UHGV virus genome: UHGV-1592266
Source of the DNA: a virus
Direction: 5' to 3' (one strand)
Length of the DNA: 17,097 bases
The number at the start of each line of letters is the position of its first letter. Within the stretch, counting starts at the first letter, position 1. The notes under the pieces are model-generated. The model made no database searches. It worked only from the letters and a program-made list of their open reading frames with translations, and was not told the DNA's origin. Both the position numbers and the translations under genes were made by a program. Below, one piece after another: positions 5,198 through 10,737 of the stretch.

Positions 5198-6166
5198 TTA
5201 GTAGGTTATTTTTGTTGCGAATACTTCGCCTTTTACGATGGCTGTTATGATATTTTTAGCAACATCTTCTGATGCACCAACCTTGATAAGGTCAGCAAGT
5301 ATTTTGTTATTTACTTCTTTCCGGTGAGCTTTATCCTTTGCTCTACGCTCTTCTTCGTCCTTGATTCTTTTTTCTTCTGCTATTCTGGCTTGCTCTTTTG
5401 CTTCAGCCTCGCGCCGGATTCGTTCAGCCTCCTCCTGTGCTTTTCGGCGTTCTGCTTCAATTGCCGCCTGCTTTTCTCTTTCAGCTCGTTCTGCTGCCTC
5501 TTTTGCTTCGCGCTGTGCTCGTTGCTCGGCTTCAATGCGTTCACGCTCTGCACGTTCCGCTGCGGCCTTAGCTTCTGCTTCTCGCCTTGCTGCTGCTTCA
5601 ATTTCGGCTTTTGCCTTTGCTTCGGCTTCTGCTCTGGCTTTCTCTTCAGCTTCTCTTTTTAAGCGTTCTTCATGCTCTCGCTTTTCCTGCTCCGCTTTGA
5701 GTCTTGCCTCTTCTCTTTGGCGGTCAAATTCGCGATCCATCAAAATAGCTATTTCATGGTCAGACTCAATTTGCTTTGCGAGAGCTTCAGCTGCTGCCTT
5801 AGCTTCTTCTTCGGCTTTAATCCGCGCCTGTTCTTCCTCATAATCAGTAAGAGGCTGGCGCGCCTTGGCTTTCAGCTCATCAAGGCGATCACGCACTGTC
5901 TTGCGGTTGGCATCAATTAGCTTTGGAATTTCCTTCAGTTCAGCAACAAGGTCTTTGCCAAGACCATCGAGATATGTTTTCGTCTGCGCAACTTTATACG
6001 CCAGAGAAGCGATCTCCTTTCTGCCCTTTGCCGTTGTGATATCAGGCACAAAGGACATAACTTCACGTTCAACCTTTTGAAGGATTTCTTCAATCTGGTC
6101 GGCAGACTGAAATACAGTCATTGCATTTGCTTTTTCAATAACAACTAAATCTGTTACTTCACTCAT
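5198..6166 (-). CDS. Coiled-coil phage protein with a long Ala/Glu/Arg/Lys-rich central region (322 aa)
   Basis: Start placed at MSEVTDLVVIEK..., preceded by GGAGG. The central ~150 aa are low-complexity (AEAKAKAEIEAAARREAEAKAAAERAERERIEAEQRAQREAKE). Family not recognised with confidence. Confidence 0.6.
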   Translation of the reverse strand: MSEVTDLVVIEKANAMTVFQSADQIEEILQKVEREVMSFVPDITTAKGRKEIASLAYKVAQTKTYLDGLGKDLVAELKEIPKLIDANRKTVRDRLDELKAKARQPLTDYEEEQARIKAEEEAKAAAEALAKQIESDHEIAILMDREFDRQREEARLKAEQEKREHEERLKREAEEKARAEAEAKAKAEIEAAARREAEAKAAAERAERERIEAEQRAQREAKEAAERAEREKQAAIEAERRKAQEEAERIRREAEAKEQARIAEEKRIKDEEERRAKDKAHRKEVNNKILADLIKVGASEDVAKNIITAIVKGEVFATKITY

Positions 6167-6178
6167 ATATCCTCCGTC

Positions 6179-6207
6179 AAAAAAATTGCCCTCACACTGG
6201 AGGGCAA
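6179..6207 (-). terminator. Intrinsic terminator on the minus strand, directly upstream of the coiled-coil gene RBS
   Basis: Read on the minus strand: TTGCCCTC-CAGTGT-GAGGGCAA hairpin followed by TTTTTTT. Confidence 0.6.
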
Positions 6208-6298
6208 AGAAGATTTCCAATAATCAGAACAAGTCGGCTCCTGTTTAGTTACGAGCGACATTGCTCACATAGCAGACTCGCAAATCTGCTATAGGTGC

Positions 6299-6460
6299 TT
6301 ATTCGCATCGCATGACAACATCAAATTTTTCGAGATTACTTTGTCGCAACAATCCCTCTTCTACGCGGTCAGCTTTTCTATAATTATCAAATTCGAAATG
6401 TTTAATTACTTCTTTCGTTTCTCGCTCTATAACTTCAACAATGTATTTCTTATTCATCAT
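6299..6460 (-). CDS. Small hypothetical protein (53 aa), second gene of cassette 2
   Basis: Start placed at MMNKKYIVEVIERETKEVIKHFEF...; its ATG overlaps the stop of the upstream 92-aa gene (ATGATGA). Confidence 0.45.
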   Translation of the reverse strand: MMNKKYIVEVIERETKEVIKHFEFDNYRKADRVEEGLLRQSNLEKFDVVMRCE

Positions 6461-6735
6461 TCTTCCCCCAGGGCCTTGCTGATGGCTGCCTTGGCTCGTT
6501 TGTATTCGGTTAACTCTCTGCACCCTTCGTCATGCTCGTAAAGGAAGACAAGCTCTTGCAGTGCTTCAAGCAAATCAGGAGCTGCTGCTATCAGTAGCGC
6601 ATCCTCCCTTTCATTTCTTGTTGCTGCTTCAATGTATGTGTCACCAATCGTCACACCATGGAACGTAGTCATCATCTCGTTGACGTTTCTAACCGTGTAC
6701 TTCCATTTACCAGGCGTACCCTTAAACTCTTTCAT
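6457..6735 (-). CDS. Small protein with conserved AAPDLLEALQ...AISKALGEE C-terminal module (paralog B)
   Basis: Start placed at the ATG at 6735 (MKEFKGTPGKWKYTV...), preceded by ACAGAGGTG. The C-terminal half (AAPDLLEALQELV...AKAAISKALGEE) parallels the 83-aa protein at 7256..7507. Confidence 0.55.
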   Translation of the reverse strand: MKEFKGTPGKWKYTVRNVNEMMTTFHGVTIGDTYIEAATRNEREDALLIAAAPDLLEALQELVFLYEHDEGCRELTEYKRAKAAISKALGEE

Positions 6736-6738
6736 ATC

Positions 6739-6783
6739 CACCTCTGTTGTTTATGCCAAAAATAAAGGCCGACTATGCGGCCT
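6739..6783 (-). repeat. About 45-bp direct repeat, copy 1: terminator hairpin plus conserved ACAGAGGTG leader
   Basis: Plus-strand cacctctgttgtttatgccaaaaataaaggccgactatgcggcct is near-identical to the copy at 7512..7557. On the minus strand it reads as hairpin GGCCGCATAGTCGGCC followed by TTTATTTTT. Confidence 0.7.
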
Positions 6784-7252
6784 AGTAGAATACCCAATTT
6801 TCTGTTTCTTGGTTGTGTCCAAAGTTATATTCAATATCTGGTGTTGATGTATCAATATTCTTCATCCCATCAACAAGAGTTGATACAACAGCCAAATCTT
6901 GTTTGATTCTCATCAAATGGTATTTCTTCCGGCGCAATAAACTTTCAATGGCAAGTTTCTTCGTCGGGAACGCAAAAGATCTTTCTGCATTTTTTGCTAC
7001 TTTCTTAATTGCATATCTATTTCTCCTTTGTTTCCATTCCTGTAACCACTGATTTGGTGCTGGTTTAAAATTAACAATCCAATGCGCAGGAACCAACCAT
7101 GCATAATGCTCTGTCTGATGAAAAGCTATATATTGAAGTGCGAATATTTTGATTCCATCTTCTTCAACTGTCGCTTGGAATCTCCAGAAAACAGGCATTC
7201 CATCATGTTCAGTTTCTGATTCAGGAAAAGGTACGCTCCATGATTTTGTCAT
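6782..7252 (-). CDS. Hypothetical protein (156 aa), second gene of cassette 1
   Basis: ATG lies 3 nt after the stop of the 83-aa gene. The coding sequence is AT-rich. No family recognised. Confidence 0.55.
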   Translation of the reverse strand: MTKSWSVPFPESETEHDGMPVFWRFQATVEEDGIKIFALQYIAFHQTEHYAWLVPAHWIVNFKPAPNQWLQEWKQRRNRYAIKKVAKNAERSFAFPTKKLAIESLLRRKKYHLMRIKQDLAVVSTLVDGMKNIDTSTPDIEYNFGHNQETENWVFY

Positions 7253-7255
7253 ATA

Positions 7256-7507
7256 TTACTCATCTCCAAGGGCTTTGCTGATTGCTGACTGTGCTTTCGA
7301 TACTTCATCAGGATAATGGTCATTCCAGTTTTGCTTGTATGCCTTGTTTAGCATCGCTTGCAGGGCTTCGAGCAAATCAGGAGCTGCCTCCATCAATCTC
7401 ACATCACCTCGATGGATGGTTGTATCGTCAAACGTGAAATAAACCCCATCATCGTTAAATCCAGCGCCAACAACATTCCATGGCCTTTTCATTCTTCCTA
7501 CTGTCAT
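7256..7507 (-). CDS. Small protein with conserved AAPDLLEALQ...AISKALGDE C-terminal module (paralog A)
   Basis: MTVGRMKRPWNVV...EAAPDLLEALQAMLNKAYK...AQSAISKALGDE. ATG at 7507 is preceded by ACAGAGGTG. Confidence 0.55.
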   Translation of the reverse strand: MTVGRMKRPWNVVGAGFNDDGVYFTFDDTTIHRGDVRLMEAAPDLLEALQAMLNKAYKQNWNDHYPDEVSKAQSAISKALGDE

Positions 7508-7511
7508 TATT

Positions 7512-7557
7512 CACCTCTGTGTATTTATGCCAAAAATAAAGGCCGACTATGCGGCCT
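7512..7557 (-). repeat. About 45-bp direct repeat, copy 2: terminator hairpin plus conserved leader
   Basis: Plus-strand cacctctgtgtatttatgccaaaaataaaggccgactatgcggcct. The minus-strand hairpin GGCCGCATAGTCGGCC plus T-run sits 5 nt after the stop of the membrane-protein gene. Confidence 0.7.
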
Positions 7558-7561
7558 GAAA

Positions 7562-8011
7562 TTACTTAACCAATGATGCTGCATATTCGATAAGGTAAAG
7601 CTTTGGGGCCAGCCAAATTTTTAACCAAGTCATATTGGTTACTACACCAATAATAAAAATCCCCCACAGAGTCAAAACTACAACCAATGGCATGATAAGA
7701 AGATTAATATCACCTTTGCTATCCCAAACCATTGTCGGCCTGTATTTGGGATTTCCTTTCTCCCATGAATATCCTTCATCACCGATTTTACCTGTCTCAA
7801 CTCTTTGGCACTGCTTCTTCATAAACCAGAAAACCAGTGGGATTGTTAAAATGGCCATTAATGTTTTAATCAGACTGTCAACCATATTCCATAGCAGCAA
7901 CTGATGAACAACATCAGGAATCTGTGCCTGGCTGAATGAAACAGCCGCGTCTATTCCATTACTGGCTTTTTGCAGTAGTTCTACGAGAATCTTGTTTGCT
8001 TGTTCTTCCAT
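7562..8011 (-). CDS. Membrane protein with two predicted transmembrane segments, possibly superinfection-exclusion (SieB-like position)
   Basis: Start placed at the ATG at 8011 (MEEQANKILVELL...), preceded by GAGG; the ORF-track start at 8062 is a TTG. Hydrophobic stretches LIKTLMAILTIPLVFWF and INLLIMPLVVVLTLWGIFIIGVV. Sits between N and the recombination genes, where lambda and P22 carry sieB. Confidence 0.45.
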   Translation of the reverse strand: MEEQANKILVELLQKASNGIDAAVSFSQAQIPDVVHQLLLWNMVDSLIKTLMAILTIPLVFWFMKKQCQRVETGKIGDEGYSWEKGNPKYRPTMVWDSKGDINLLIMPLVVVLTLWGIFIIGVVTNMTWLKIWLAPKLYLIEYAASLVK

Positions 8012-8019
8012 ATCTAACC

Positions 8020-8184
8020 TCAAATAAGTGGTTTGCTGCGAAAATAAATACGTTCCCACCAAGTTCCGTATCTATCTATCCAGTTACACCAATCATCGAC
8101 ATTCCATTTTGTTGTGTCGCATTTTGGCAACTGGCATGAATATCCACCTTCTTTGTAAAGTCGGCGTTTGACTTTCTTGAGCAT
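8020..8184 (-). CDS. Small Cys/Trp-rich hypothetical protein (54 aa) immediately downstream of N
   Basis: ATG at 8184 lies 8 nt after the N stop and is preceded by GAGGTG. Frame MLKKVKRRLYKEGGYSCQLPKCDTTKWNVDDWCNWIDRYGTWWERIYFRSKPLI. Below the ORF-track size cutoff. Confidence 0.4.
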   Translation of the reverse strand: MLKKVKRRLYKEGGYSCQLPKCDTTKWNVDDWCNWIDRYGTWWERIYFRSKPLI

Positions 8185-8192
8185 GGCTCACC

Positions 8193-8525
8193 TCAATCGT
8201 AATAAGCTGGAATTGATTTTCCGCGTTGCTTCTGGCGGCCTGAGCAAGTCACACCCATTTCACTGCGTGGCTTGCTGTACCATGTGCGCTGATTCTTGCG
8301 CTCAATACGTTGCAGGTTGCTTTCAATCTGTTCGTGGTATTCAGCTAGCACCGTAAGGTCTATAGGATTCAGTGCGCTTTCTACTCGTGATTTCGGTTTG
8401 CGATTCAGCGAGAGAATAGGGCGGTTAACTGGTTTTGCGCTTACCCCAACCAACAGGGGATTTGCTGCTTTCCATTGAGCCTGTTTCTCTGCGCGACGTT
8501 CGCGGCGGCGTGTTTGTGCATCCAT
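8193..8525 (-). CDS. N: Antitermination protein N (lambda-type)
   Basis: MDAQTRRRERRAEKQAQWKAANPLLVGVSAKPVNRPILSLNRKPKSRVESALNPIDLTVLAEYH... is a near match to lambda N, including the Arg-rich boxB-binding N-terminus. ATG is preceded by AGGAGAA. Confidence 0.9.
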   Translation of the reverse strand: MDAQTRRRERRAEKQAQWKAANPLLVGVSAKPVNRPILSLNRKPKSRVESALNPIDLTVLAEYHEQIESNLQRIERKNQRTWYSKPRSEMGVTCSGRQKQRGKSIPAYYD

Positions 8526-8793
8526 CTGGATTCTCCTGTCAGTTAGCTTTGGTGGTGTGGTGGCTGGTAGTCTAGCTCCAGCTTGTTGAGTCTCATTCGG
8601 AGGGGTATAACCGGCACCCCAGCGATTTTTCCATGCGACAACGTGCGCGTTATGGCGGCCTTATCGCCCGCGGCTCCCCATCTCGTCCACGCTATTGCTA
8701 GCGTTGGGAGCGCTTCACCGCTCAACAGTAGGTAAGCACTTGCCAGTGACTAGCTGGCTTCACCACACCCCAAAGCCTTCTGCTTTGAATGCT

Positions 8794-8823
8794 GCCCTTC
8801 TTCAGGGCTTAATTTTTAAGAGC
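8794..8823 (-). promoter_or_regulatory. nutL site (boxA plus boxB) for N-dependent antitermination
   Basis: Minus strand reads GCTCTTAAAAATTAA-GCCCTGAAGAAGGGC: boxA-like GCTCTTA followed by the boxB hairpin GCCCTGAAGAAGGGC. Lies downstream of the OL/pL region and upstream of N. Confidence 0.8.
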
Positions 8824-8863
8824 ATCACCTTCATGGTGGTTAGCGCGTCCTGCTGATGGCTTA

Positions 8864-8936
8864 AAATTACAAGAAAGATTGTATACTGTAAACAAGAAAT
8901 ATTGTAAAAAGAGGCGTGAAAAACAAACTCCGTTGT
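8864..8936 (-). promoter_or_regulatory. OL operators (three 14-bp ACAA-N6-TTGT sites) overlapping the presumed pL promoter
   Basis: Sites ACAAGAAAGATTGT (8869..8882), ACAAGAAATATTGT (8892..8905) and ACAAACTCCGTTGT (8923..8936). Candidate pL on the minus strand: -35 TTTACA (8887..8892), -10 TAATTT (8864..8869). Confidence 0.7.
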
Positions 8937-8986
8937 TTTTAAACGGAAAATAGTTTGTTTTTTGGTTATCGAGATTGAGGTGGGGA

Positions 8987-10339
<1,353 letters not shown>

Positions 10340-10347
10340 GACATTCC

Positions 10348-10379
10348 CGCTCTTACACATCCCCGCCCTGAAAAAGGGC
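10348..10379 (+). promoter_or_regulatory. nutR site (boxA CGCTCTTA plus boxB GCCCTGAAAAAGGGC)
   Basis: CGCTCTTACACATCCCCGCCCTGAAAAAGGGC lies directly downstream of cro. It is followed by a lambda-like tR1/cII leader (...CATACATTCAATCAATTGTTATCTAAGGAAATACTTACATATG). Confidence 0.85.
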
Positions 10380-10458
10380 ATCAAATTAAACCACACCTAT
10401 GGTGTATGCATTTATTTGCATACATTCAATCAATTGTTATCTAAGGAAATACTTACAT

Positions 10459-10737
10459 ATGCAACTTACAAGTACTCGCAAGAAAGCGAATGCAATTACA
10501 AGCAACATCCTGAATCGAATTGCTGTACGTGGTCAGCGAAAGGTTGCCGACGCGTTAGGGATTAATGAATCGCAAATTTCGCGATGGAAAGATAGCTTCA
10601 TCCCCAAAATGGGAATGCTTCTGGCTGTTCTTGAATGGGGTGTTGAAGACGAGGAGTTGGCGGAACTGGCTAAGAAAGTAGCCAGAATGCTGACAAAAGA
10701 AAAAGCCCCGAAGAACGGCGAATTCTTCGAGGCCTGA
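10459..10737 (+). CDS. cII: cII transcriptional activator (lambda-like)
   Basis: Start placed at MQLTSTRKKANAITSNILNRIAVRGQRKVADALGINESQISRWKDSFIPKMGMLLAVLEWGV..., similar to lambda cII (..SQISRWKRDWIPKFSMLLAVLEWGV..). ATG is preceded by AAGGA. Confidence 0.85.
   Translation: MQLTSTRKKANAITSNILNRIAVRGQRKVADALGINESQISRWKDSFIPKMGMLLAVLEWGVEDEELAELAKKVARMLTKEKAPKNGEFFEA

What the first reader, a model, noticed from the sequence alone, without database searches (positions are those of the whole stretch)
8020..8184. Unannotated Cys/Trp-rich 54-aa ORF directly after N
This ORF is below the size cutoff of the ORF track. It has a good RBS (GAGGTG), starts 8 nt after the N stop and ends 9 nt before the membrane-protein start, so it is embedded in an otherwise compact operon. 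Four Cys and six Trp in 54 residues suggest a small metal-binding or protein-interaction module. Lambda carries the small anti-restriction gene ral in the equivalent region.
Basis: partly seen in the sequence, partly recalled or inferred. Interest (0 to 1): 0.35.

Follow-up and report, generated by a model that had tools for sequence, protein, structure and literature searches.

The report
Small conserved phage gene after N
The 54-codon reading frame just after the antitermination gene N is a real phage gene of a catalogued but uncharacterised family (Pfam DUF5484, T4 gp55.4, Sf6 gene 36); it is unrelated to ral and its cysteines are not conserved, so it is an ordinary small early accessory gene of unknown target.

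Summary
The ORF at 8020..8184 (minus strand) exists as described. Two details are wrong: it has 3 Cys and 5 Trp, not 4 and 6, and it lies 8 nt, not 9, from the next ATG.

It is a genuine gene. It scores above the Pfam cut-off for DUF5484 and matches phrog_1871. It is the same gene as Sf6 gene 36, SfI_0044 and Bas106_0043, and it is about 50% identical to T4-type gp55.4.

- **Frame conservation:** the frame is intact in 77 of 79 close relatives, always 7-8 nt after the same N C-terminus.
- **Conserved core:** residues 1-43 form a confidently predicted helix-strand-helix-strand mini-domain. It carries invariant Pro20 and Gly40 and near-invariant Tyr15, Trp27, Trp32, Ile36, Asp37 and Trp42.
- **Tail:** the last 10 residues come from a 19-nt deletion that removes the usual stop codon, so translation runs into the leader of the next gene.
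- **Cysteines:** they are not conserved, so a metal site is unlikely.
- **Ral:** there is no similarity to Ral, and relatives carry ral as a separate gene.
- **Dispensability:** T4 55.4 knock-down has no fitness cost on the laboratory host.

The most likely role is a small early accessory protein that binds a host factor, but the target is unknown. The gene had no annotated feature in any of the 13 RefSeq E. coli records I looked at.

The parts
8020..8184 (-). Whole 54-codon ORF plus stop: the lambdoid copy of DUF5484 / phrog_1871 (T4 gp55.4, Sf6 gene 36)
8056..8184 (-). Conserved core, residues 1-43: predicted helix 3-12, strand 15-17, helix 29-39, strand 40-42. Invariant P20 and G40; near-invariant Y15, W27, W32, I36, D37, W42
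8020..8055 (-). Non-conserved tail (residues 44-54 plus stop). A 19-nt deletion relative to the 45-aa Sf6/SfI/BEN2908 form removes the TAA stop, so translation runs into the leader of the next gene. Model confidence is low here
8012..8054 (-). Conserved junction ('boundary') sequence with the RBS of the next gene. It is also found upstream of unrelated downstream genes in HK633, Oslo, Sf6 and SfI
8189..8194 (-). Shine-Dalgarno GAGGTG, overlapping the N stop codon by 2 nt
8193..8525 (-). Antitermination gene N (Pfam N36, phrog_271). Its C-terminal codons travel with the ORF in all 79 related loci
7562..8011 (-). Downstream membrane-protein gene (phrog_3054, Sf6 gp34-like), a variable occupant of this slot
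7540..7557 (-). First terminator-like hairpin plus T-run found on the minus strand downstream of N, just after the membrane gene
8794..8808 (-). Hairpin GCCCTGAAGAAGGGC, boxB-like (nutL). It sits upstream of N at the position equivalent to the nutL annotated in Sf6
   Evidence: the boxB sequence identity is from memory

Best explanation
The ORF is a real protein-coding gene. It is the temperate-phage (Sf6/P22-like) copy of the DUF5484 family, whose founding member is T4 gp55.4.

Shown:
- It lies in the early leftward operon, 8 nt after N, with its Shine-Dalgarno sequence overlapping the N stop codon.
- The pattern scan finds no terminator-like site on the minus strand before the end of the next gene.
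- Residues 1-43 are predicted with high confidence to fold into a helix-strand-helix-strand mini-domain.
- The tail (residues 44-54) is a by-product of a 19-nt deletion and is not part of the family.

Inferred:
- It is made together with N at the very start of lytic growth.
- The conserved aromatic residues form the core of the mini-domain.
- The protein has no catalytic or conserved metal site. Most likely it acts stoichiometrically by binding a host (or phage) macromolecule, as a dispensable early accessory factor for host takeover or counter-defence. The target is unknown.
For: Identity:
- Pfam DUF5484 scores 41.5 bits against a cut-off of 27, and phrog_1871 gives E = 4e-21.
- T4 55.4 is listed under the same phrog_1871 (PMC11879866 supplement).
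- Sf6 gene 36 is annotated 'similar to T4 55.4' and sits in the same position.
- The gene is 47-52% identical to T-even copies, and tblastn finds it in 1029 phage records.

Selection:
- 77 of 79 close relatives keep the frame.
- Pooled pN/pS is 0.21.

Fold:
- The AlphaFold2 model has pLDDT 89.7.
- It matches predicted structures of family members, for example phage AR1, at rmsd 0.6.
- It matches no solved structure by fold or by sequence.

Early expression:
- The SD overlaps the N stop codon.
- No terminator-like site lies on the minus strand between N and 7557.
- T2 gp55.4 transcripts are grouped with early-to-middle functions.

Accessory status:
- T4 55.4 knock-down is scored 'Not Fit', score -0.35, p = 0.68.
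- HK633 holds a different gene in the same slot 8 nt after N.
- The downstream neighbours vary.
- Distant members sit in arrays of small unknown phage genes.

Binding rather than chemistry:
- The domain is only about 43 aa.
- The conserved positions are Pro, Gly, aromatic or aliphatic residues, plus K6 and D37.
- The net charge of the core ranges from -5 to +7.
Against: - No experiment or interaction partner exists for any member: a search for DUF5484 found 0 papers and one for phrog_1871 found 0.
- Nearly all conserved residues could be purely structural, so no conserved binding surface is evident.
- Some prophage copies are degraded: one frameshift and one truncation among 79 loci, P20Q in 6 of 79, and truncated clusters P0003-P0006. 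Selection in lysogens may therefore be weak.
- The pN/pS estimate rests on at most 5 differences per pair.
- Translation of this copy has not been shown.
Confidence: 0.6

Rival explanations
1. It is a Ral-like anti-restriction or modification-enhancing protein that occupies the ral slot.
For: It lies in the accessory region between N and cIII, where relatives carry ral. This window has no ral homologue. It is small and expressed early.
Against: BLASTP against Sf6 Ral gives no alignment, and there is no Ral family hit in Pfam at E <= 1. It co-occurs with ral in Sf6, SfI and about 30 of 80 loci, so it does not substitute for ral. There is no PADLOC match.
Confidence: 0.07
2. It is a Cys-based metal-binding (zinc) module.
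For: All lambdoid copies have three Cys: C17, C22 and C33. Some environmental relatives with an N-terminal CxxC extension keep C33 and His39 (P0029, P0031, P0047), so a subfamily might bind zinc.
Against: There are only three Cys and no His in this protein. Only 2 of 36 diverse members keep all three positions and 11 of 36 keep none; C22 is mostly V/G and C33 mostly I/V. T-even copies such as RB69 gp55.4 have no Cys at these positions. The fold is predicted confidently without a metal.
Confidence: 0.06
3. It is a nucleic-acid-binding regulator, for example an RNA or DNA binder that modulates early transcription or antitermination together with N.
For: This copy is basic: 12 K+R against 6 D+E. 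K6 and K/R11 are conserved. It is tightly linked to the N C-terminus in 79 of 79 loci. Exposed Trp residues could stack on bases.
Against: Net charge is not conserved: it ranges from -5 to +7 with a median of 0. The family is abundant in T-even and other phages where the gene lies among unrelated small genes, not next to an N gene. There is no match to a known nucleic-acid-binding fold. Linkage to N is expected from adjacency alone, because the loci were chosen as close relatives of this ORF.
Confidence: 0.15
4. It is not a functional gene: either a chance ORF or one whose translation only serves to couple expression of neighbouring genes.
For: Many ORFs of this size occur by chance. None of the 13 RefSeq E. 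coli records looked at has an annotated feature there. A few relatives are frameshifted or truncated.
Against: The amino-acid sequence is conserved at about 50% identity between lambdoid and T-even phages, with invariant or near-invariant positions. The Pfam score is above the cut-off. The fold prediction is confident.
Confidence: 0.03

Closest known systems
Shigella phage Sf6 gene 36 protein (NP_958212), SfI_0044 and Bas106_0043
   Same: Same gene and same position, 8 nt after the same type of N. They are about 89-93% identical, and Bas106_0043 is also 54 aa.
   Different: The Sf6 and SfI copies are 45 aa and end in WWDK. The window copy lacks 19 nt, including their stop codon, and carries a 10-residue unrelated tail. 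Downstream, Sf6 has ral; here there is a membrane-protein gene.
T4-type gp55.4 (Pfam DUF5484, phrog_1871)
   Same: Same family by HMM score. It has the same conserved K-x2-LY-x2-G-x-Y ... P ... T-x2-W-x4-W-x2-WID-x2-G-x-W pattern, the same predicted fold and a size of about 43 aa. It is an early accessory gene of unknown function.
   Different: Only about 48-52% identical. The T-even copies lack the Cys residues. They sit in the gene 55-nrdH cluster of a virulent phage, not behind an N gene.
Lambda-type Ral (restriction alleviation)
   Same: A small early gene in the accessory region of the leftward operon between N and cIII.
   Different: There is no sequence similarity. In relatives it is a separate gene that co-occurs with this one. 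This window contains no ral at all.

Membership tests
Pfam DUF5484 / PHROG 1871 (T4 gp55.4 family) | Score above the curated Pfam gathering cut-off across the whole model | tested here: met
   41.5 bits against a cut-off of 27; residues 5-42 match model positions 3-41 of 43. phrog_1871 gives E = 4e-21.
Pfam DUF5484 / PHROG 1871 (T4 gp55.4 family) | Family-wide conserved residues present: P20 and G40 (invariant); Y15, W27, W32, I36, D37, W42 (at least 90%) | tested here: met
   All are present in the window protein.
Pfam DUF5484 / PHROG 1871 (T4 gp55.4 family) | Same predicted fold as other members | tested here: met
   BFVD matches to phage AR1 D4Z9L8 (TM 0.73, rmsd 0.6, 42 columns) and two further members at E <= 1.1e-3.
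Pfam DUF5484 / PHROG 1871 (T4 gp55.4 family) | Single-domain protein of about 41-48 aa | tested here: inconclusive
   The core fits, but this allele has a 10-residue non-homologous tail created by a 19-nt deletion.
Ral (restriction alleviation) family | Sequence similarity to Ral | tested here: not met
   BLASTP against Sf6 Ral gives no alignment at E <= 100. A Pfam scan at E <= 1 returns only DUF5484.
Ral (restriction alleviation) family | Alleviates type I restriction or enhances modification | not testable with these tools
   This needs plating assays.
Small zinc-binding modules (zinc ribbon or knuckle) | Four conserved Cys/His ligands | tested here: not met
   The protein has three Cys and no His. 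The three positions are all kept in only 2 of 36 members.

The most novel reading that the evidence does not exclude
DUF5484 could be an uncharacterised class of small inhibitor with its own mini-fold. It is shared by T-even, lambdoid and marine podophages, made in the first minutes of infection, and would neutralise a conserved host factor or defence system. If so, the lambdoid copy is co-expressed with N from the first early transcript, before antitermination is established.
Probability: 0.3. Interest if true: 0.5.

Novelty: already known. Interest (0 to 1): 0.18.

Why it matters
The practical value is modest.
- It shows that this small gene lies in prophages of 145 of 5426 complete E. coli genomes. 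None of the 13 RefSeq records I looked at has an annotated feature over it.
- It links a T4 orphan gene (55.4) to a fixed position right behind N in Sf6/P22-like phages.

If a target for this family were found, it would assign a function to a gene present in about 2% of sequenced phage records.

Tried and rejected
- **Ral homology:** rejected.
- **Defence-system membership:** there were no PADLOC hits for the ORF, the membrane protein or the 158-aa ORF next to the repressor gene.
- **NCBIfam:** no model matched.
- **Structural relatives:** Foldseek against the PDB gave only noise at E > 7. A profile search of PDB sequences gave nothing at E <= 10. BFVD returned only family members.
- **Domain fusions as a functional clue:** longer relatives (P0031, P0032, P0043-P0048) carry no recognisable second Pfam domain. 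Three multi-stretch hits (P0016, P0019, P0020) look like repetitive sequences unrelated to the family.
- **Genomic context of distant members:** uninformative, only arrays of small unknown phage genes.
- **Literature:** a search for DUF5484 found 0 papers, phrog_1871 found 0, and gp55.4 found only a transcript listing. Two T4 gene-list searches found nothing. The T4 genome review is not held in the library.
- **Rfam:** no RNA family matched anywhere in the window.
- **Antisense ORFs:** no significant family match.
- **GTDB species genomes:** A strict motif pattern found only one locus, a Pirellulaceae MAG contig carrying P0011, so the family looks largely confined to phages.
- **Complex prediction:** I could not run complex prediction or inspect model coordinates, so burial of the conserved Trp residues is inferred, not measured.

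Full report
**Observation**

The minus strand carries an ATG at 8184 and a TGA stop at 8022-8020, giving 54 codons. GAGGTG lies at 8194-8189 and overlaps the stop codon of the upstream gene (TGA 8195-8193). Eight nucleotides separate that stop from the ATG.

The upstream gene (8193..8525) is antitermination protein N: Pfam N36 gives E = 1.6e-26, and phrog_271 also matches. The downstream gene starts at ATG 8011, eight nucleotides after the stop rather than nine. It encodes a 149-aa protein of phrog_3054 that is annotated with the same start in other records.

The protein has 3 Cys and 5 Trp, not 4 and 6. An ORF of this length is not remarkable in itself, since 37 ORFs of at least 40 aa overlap 6000-10500.

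**What it is**

The protein scores 41.5 bits against Pfam DUF5484 (cut-off 27) and E = 4e-21 against phrog_1871. The following phage records annotate the same gene in the same place, 8 nt after N:
- SfI_0044
- Bas106_0043, which is 54 aa and 92.6% identical

tblastn finds the protein in 1029 of 50,697 phage records. Almost all are T4-like phages of Escherichia, Klebsiella, Shigella, Yersinia and others. In those the match is 43-52% identical over residues 2-42, and in RB69 it is annotated gp55.4. T4 55.4 is itself listed under phrog_1871 (PMC11879866 supplement). An Alteromonas podophage also has a copy.

A full HMMER search of 1.84 billion representative proteins gave 42 hits. Nearly all are 41-120 aa.

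**Conservation**

In an alignment of 36 diverse members, P20 and G40 are invariant. Y15, W27, W32, I36, D37 and W42 are at least 90% conserved. K6, L9, Y/F10, G13 and T24 are strongly conserved.

The cysteines are not conserved. C17 is Cys in 22 of 36 members, C22 in 4 of 36 (mostly Val or Gly) and C33 in 6 of 36 (mostly Ile or Val). All three are kept in only 2 of 36, and none in 11 of 36. The net charge of the core ranges from -5 to +7.

Among 79 close relatives from IMG/VR, 77 keep an intact frame of 45 or 54 aa; one is truncated and one frameshifted. Pooled pN/pS over 22 core alleles is 0.21, but this rests on very low divergence.

**Structure**

AlphaFold2 with this alignment gives mean pLDDT 89.7, with helix 3-12, strand 15-17, helix 29-39 and strand 40-42. 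Confidence drops over residues 44-54. Foldseek finds nothing meaningful in the PDB. A profile search of PDB sequences is empty. In BFVD, Foldseek matches only uncharacterised family members, such as phage AR1 at rmsd 0.6.

**Origin of the 54-aa form**

The 45-aa form in Sf6, SfI and E. coli BEN2908 ends ...TGG TGG GAT AAA TAA. A conserved junction sequence of about 45 nt follows, which carries the RBS of the next gene. The window lacks 19 nt (ATAAATAACAGGTAACTTA), including that stop codon, so the frame reads through the junction sequence to a TGA 8 nt before the next ATG.

The same junction sequence precedes unrelated downstream genes in HK633 and Oslo. Nine other IMG/VR loci and Bas106 carry the 54-aa form.

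**Context**

The window is the early region of an Sf6/P22-like temperate phage.
- It carries cIII, kil and a gp33-like gene that are 100% identical in protein to those of Sf6.
- It also carries Erf, SSB and Abc2.
- A boxB-like hairpin lies upstream of N at 8794-8808. That its sequence equals lambda nutL boxB is from memory.
- The first terminator-like site found on the minus strand downstream of N lies at 7557-7540, after the membrane gene.

N, this ORF and the membrane gene therefore look like one immediate-early unit; this is an inference from pattern scans.

In all 79 related loci the ORF follows the same N C-terminus (...GRQKQRGKSIPAYYD) by 7-8 nt. The downstream gene varies: ral, the membrane protein, a 156-aa protein or an SSB-like gene. 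HK633 has the same N, diverging from window position 8230, followed after 8 nt by an unrelated 129-aa gene. So this is a variable accessory slot.

**Function**

Nothing is published for any member. In the CRISPRi-ART screen of T4, knock-down of 55.4 is scored 'Not Fit' (score -0.35, p = 0.68), meaning the gene is dispensable on the laboratory host. T2 gp55.4 transcripts are grouped with early-to-middle functions.

Taken together, these points lead me to commit to one reading. The protein is tiny, its fold appears to rest on an aromatic core, it has no catalytic or conserved metal site, it is expressed early, it is dispensable, and it sits in mosaic accessory regions. I read it as a small early accessory protein that acts by binding a host or phage macromolecule, in host takeover or counter-defence.

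The identity of the gene is near certain. The mode of action is inferred, and the target is unknown.

**Rivals**

- **Ral-like anti-restriction:** not supported. There is no similarity, the gene co-occurs with ral, and the window has no ral.
- **Metal module:** not supported for the family. A subfamily with an N-terminal CxxC extension that keeps C33 and H39 might bind zinc.
- **Nucleic-acid binder:** possible for this basic allele, but charge is not conserved.
- **Chance ORF:** excluded by cross-family conservation.

**Annotation status**

The 129-nt core occurs at 95% identity or more, in single copy and on the chromosome, in 145 of 5426 complete E. coli genomes. No feature is annotated over it in any of the 12 records sampled across the ranking, nor in BEN2908. 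GenBank phage records do annotate it, as a hypothetical protein.

**Verdict**

This is a real, already catalogued gene of unknown function. Its two functional suggestions, a metal-binding module and a ral analogue, are not supported.

Noticed in passing
window 6750-6783 and 7524-7557: An exact 34-nt direct repeat (TTTATGCCAAAAATAAAGGCCGACTATGCGGCCT), with copies 774 nt apart. On the minus strand the copy at 7524-7557 reads as a terminator-like hairpin plus T-run; the other copy is identical in sequence. Each copy sits just upstream of one of two paralogous small genes (7256..7507 and 6457..6741, both phrog_1273). A further 49-nt repeat lies inside those genes. This looks like a duplicated terminator-plus-gene cassette.
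   Followed up: partly
window 8012-8054 (minus strand): A conserved junction sequence (...GCAGCAAACCACTTATTTGAGGT.AGATATG) precedes different downstream genes in the window, Sf6, SfI, Bas106, HK633 and Oslo. This is the kind of short shared linker at which lambdoid modules are exchanged.
   Followed up: partly
E. coli RefSeq genomes (hits H116-H127, L004): The DUF5484 core is present in 145 of 5426 complete E. coli genomes, yet no feature is annotated over it in any of the 13 RefSeq records looked at.
   Followed up: partly
window 8794-8808 (minus strand): The hairpin GCCCTGAAGAAGGGC is flagged as terminator-like on the plus strand. Read on the minus strand it is a boxB-type nutL hairpin upstream of N, consistent with the lambda-type N36 arginine-rich motif of this N.
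   Followed up: no
IMG/VR loci L011-L089: In about a dozen loci the reading frame that ends in the N C-terminus is open for only 29-61 codons upstream, so N may be truncated or have a different arrangement there. Six of the 79 copies of the small gene carry Gln in place of the otherwise invariant Pro20.
   Followed up: no
proteins P0029, P0031, P0043, P0047 (metagenomic relatives; L008, L010): Environmental family members carry an N-terminal CxxC-containing extension, and three of the four (not P0043) also keep Cys33 and His39. This hints at a zinc-stabilised subfamily distinct from the enterobacterial copies.
   Followed up: no
window 8987-9463 (minus strand): A 158-aa ORF with an N-terminal hydrophobic segment (phrog_2651, unknown function) overlaps the end of the repressor gene. 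It occupies the position where lambda has rexAB and Sf6 has gene 38. There is no PADLOC match.
   Followed up: no
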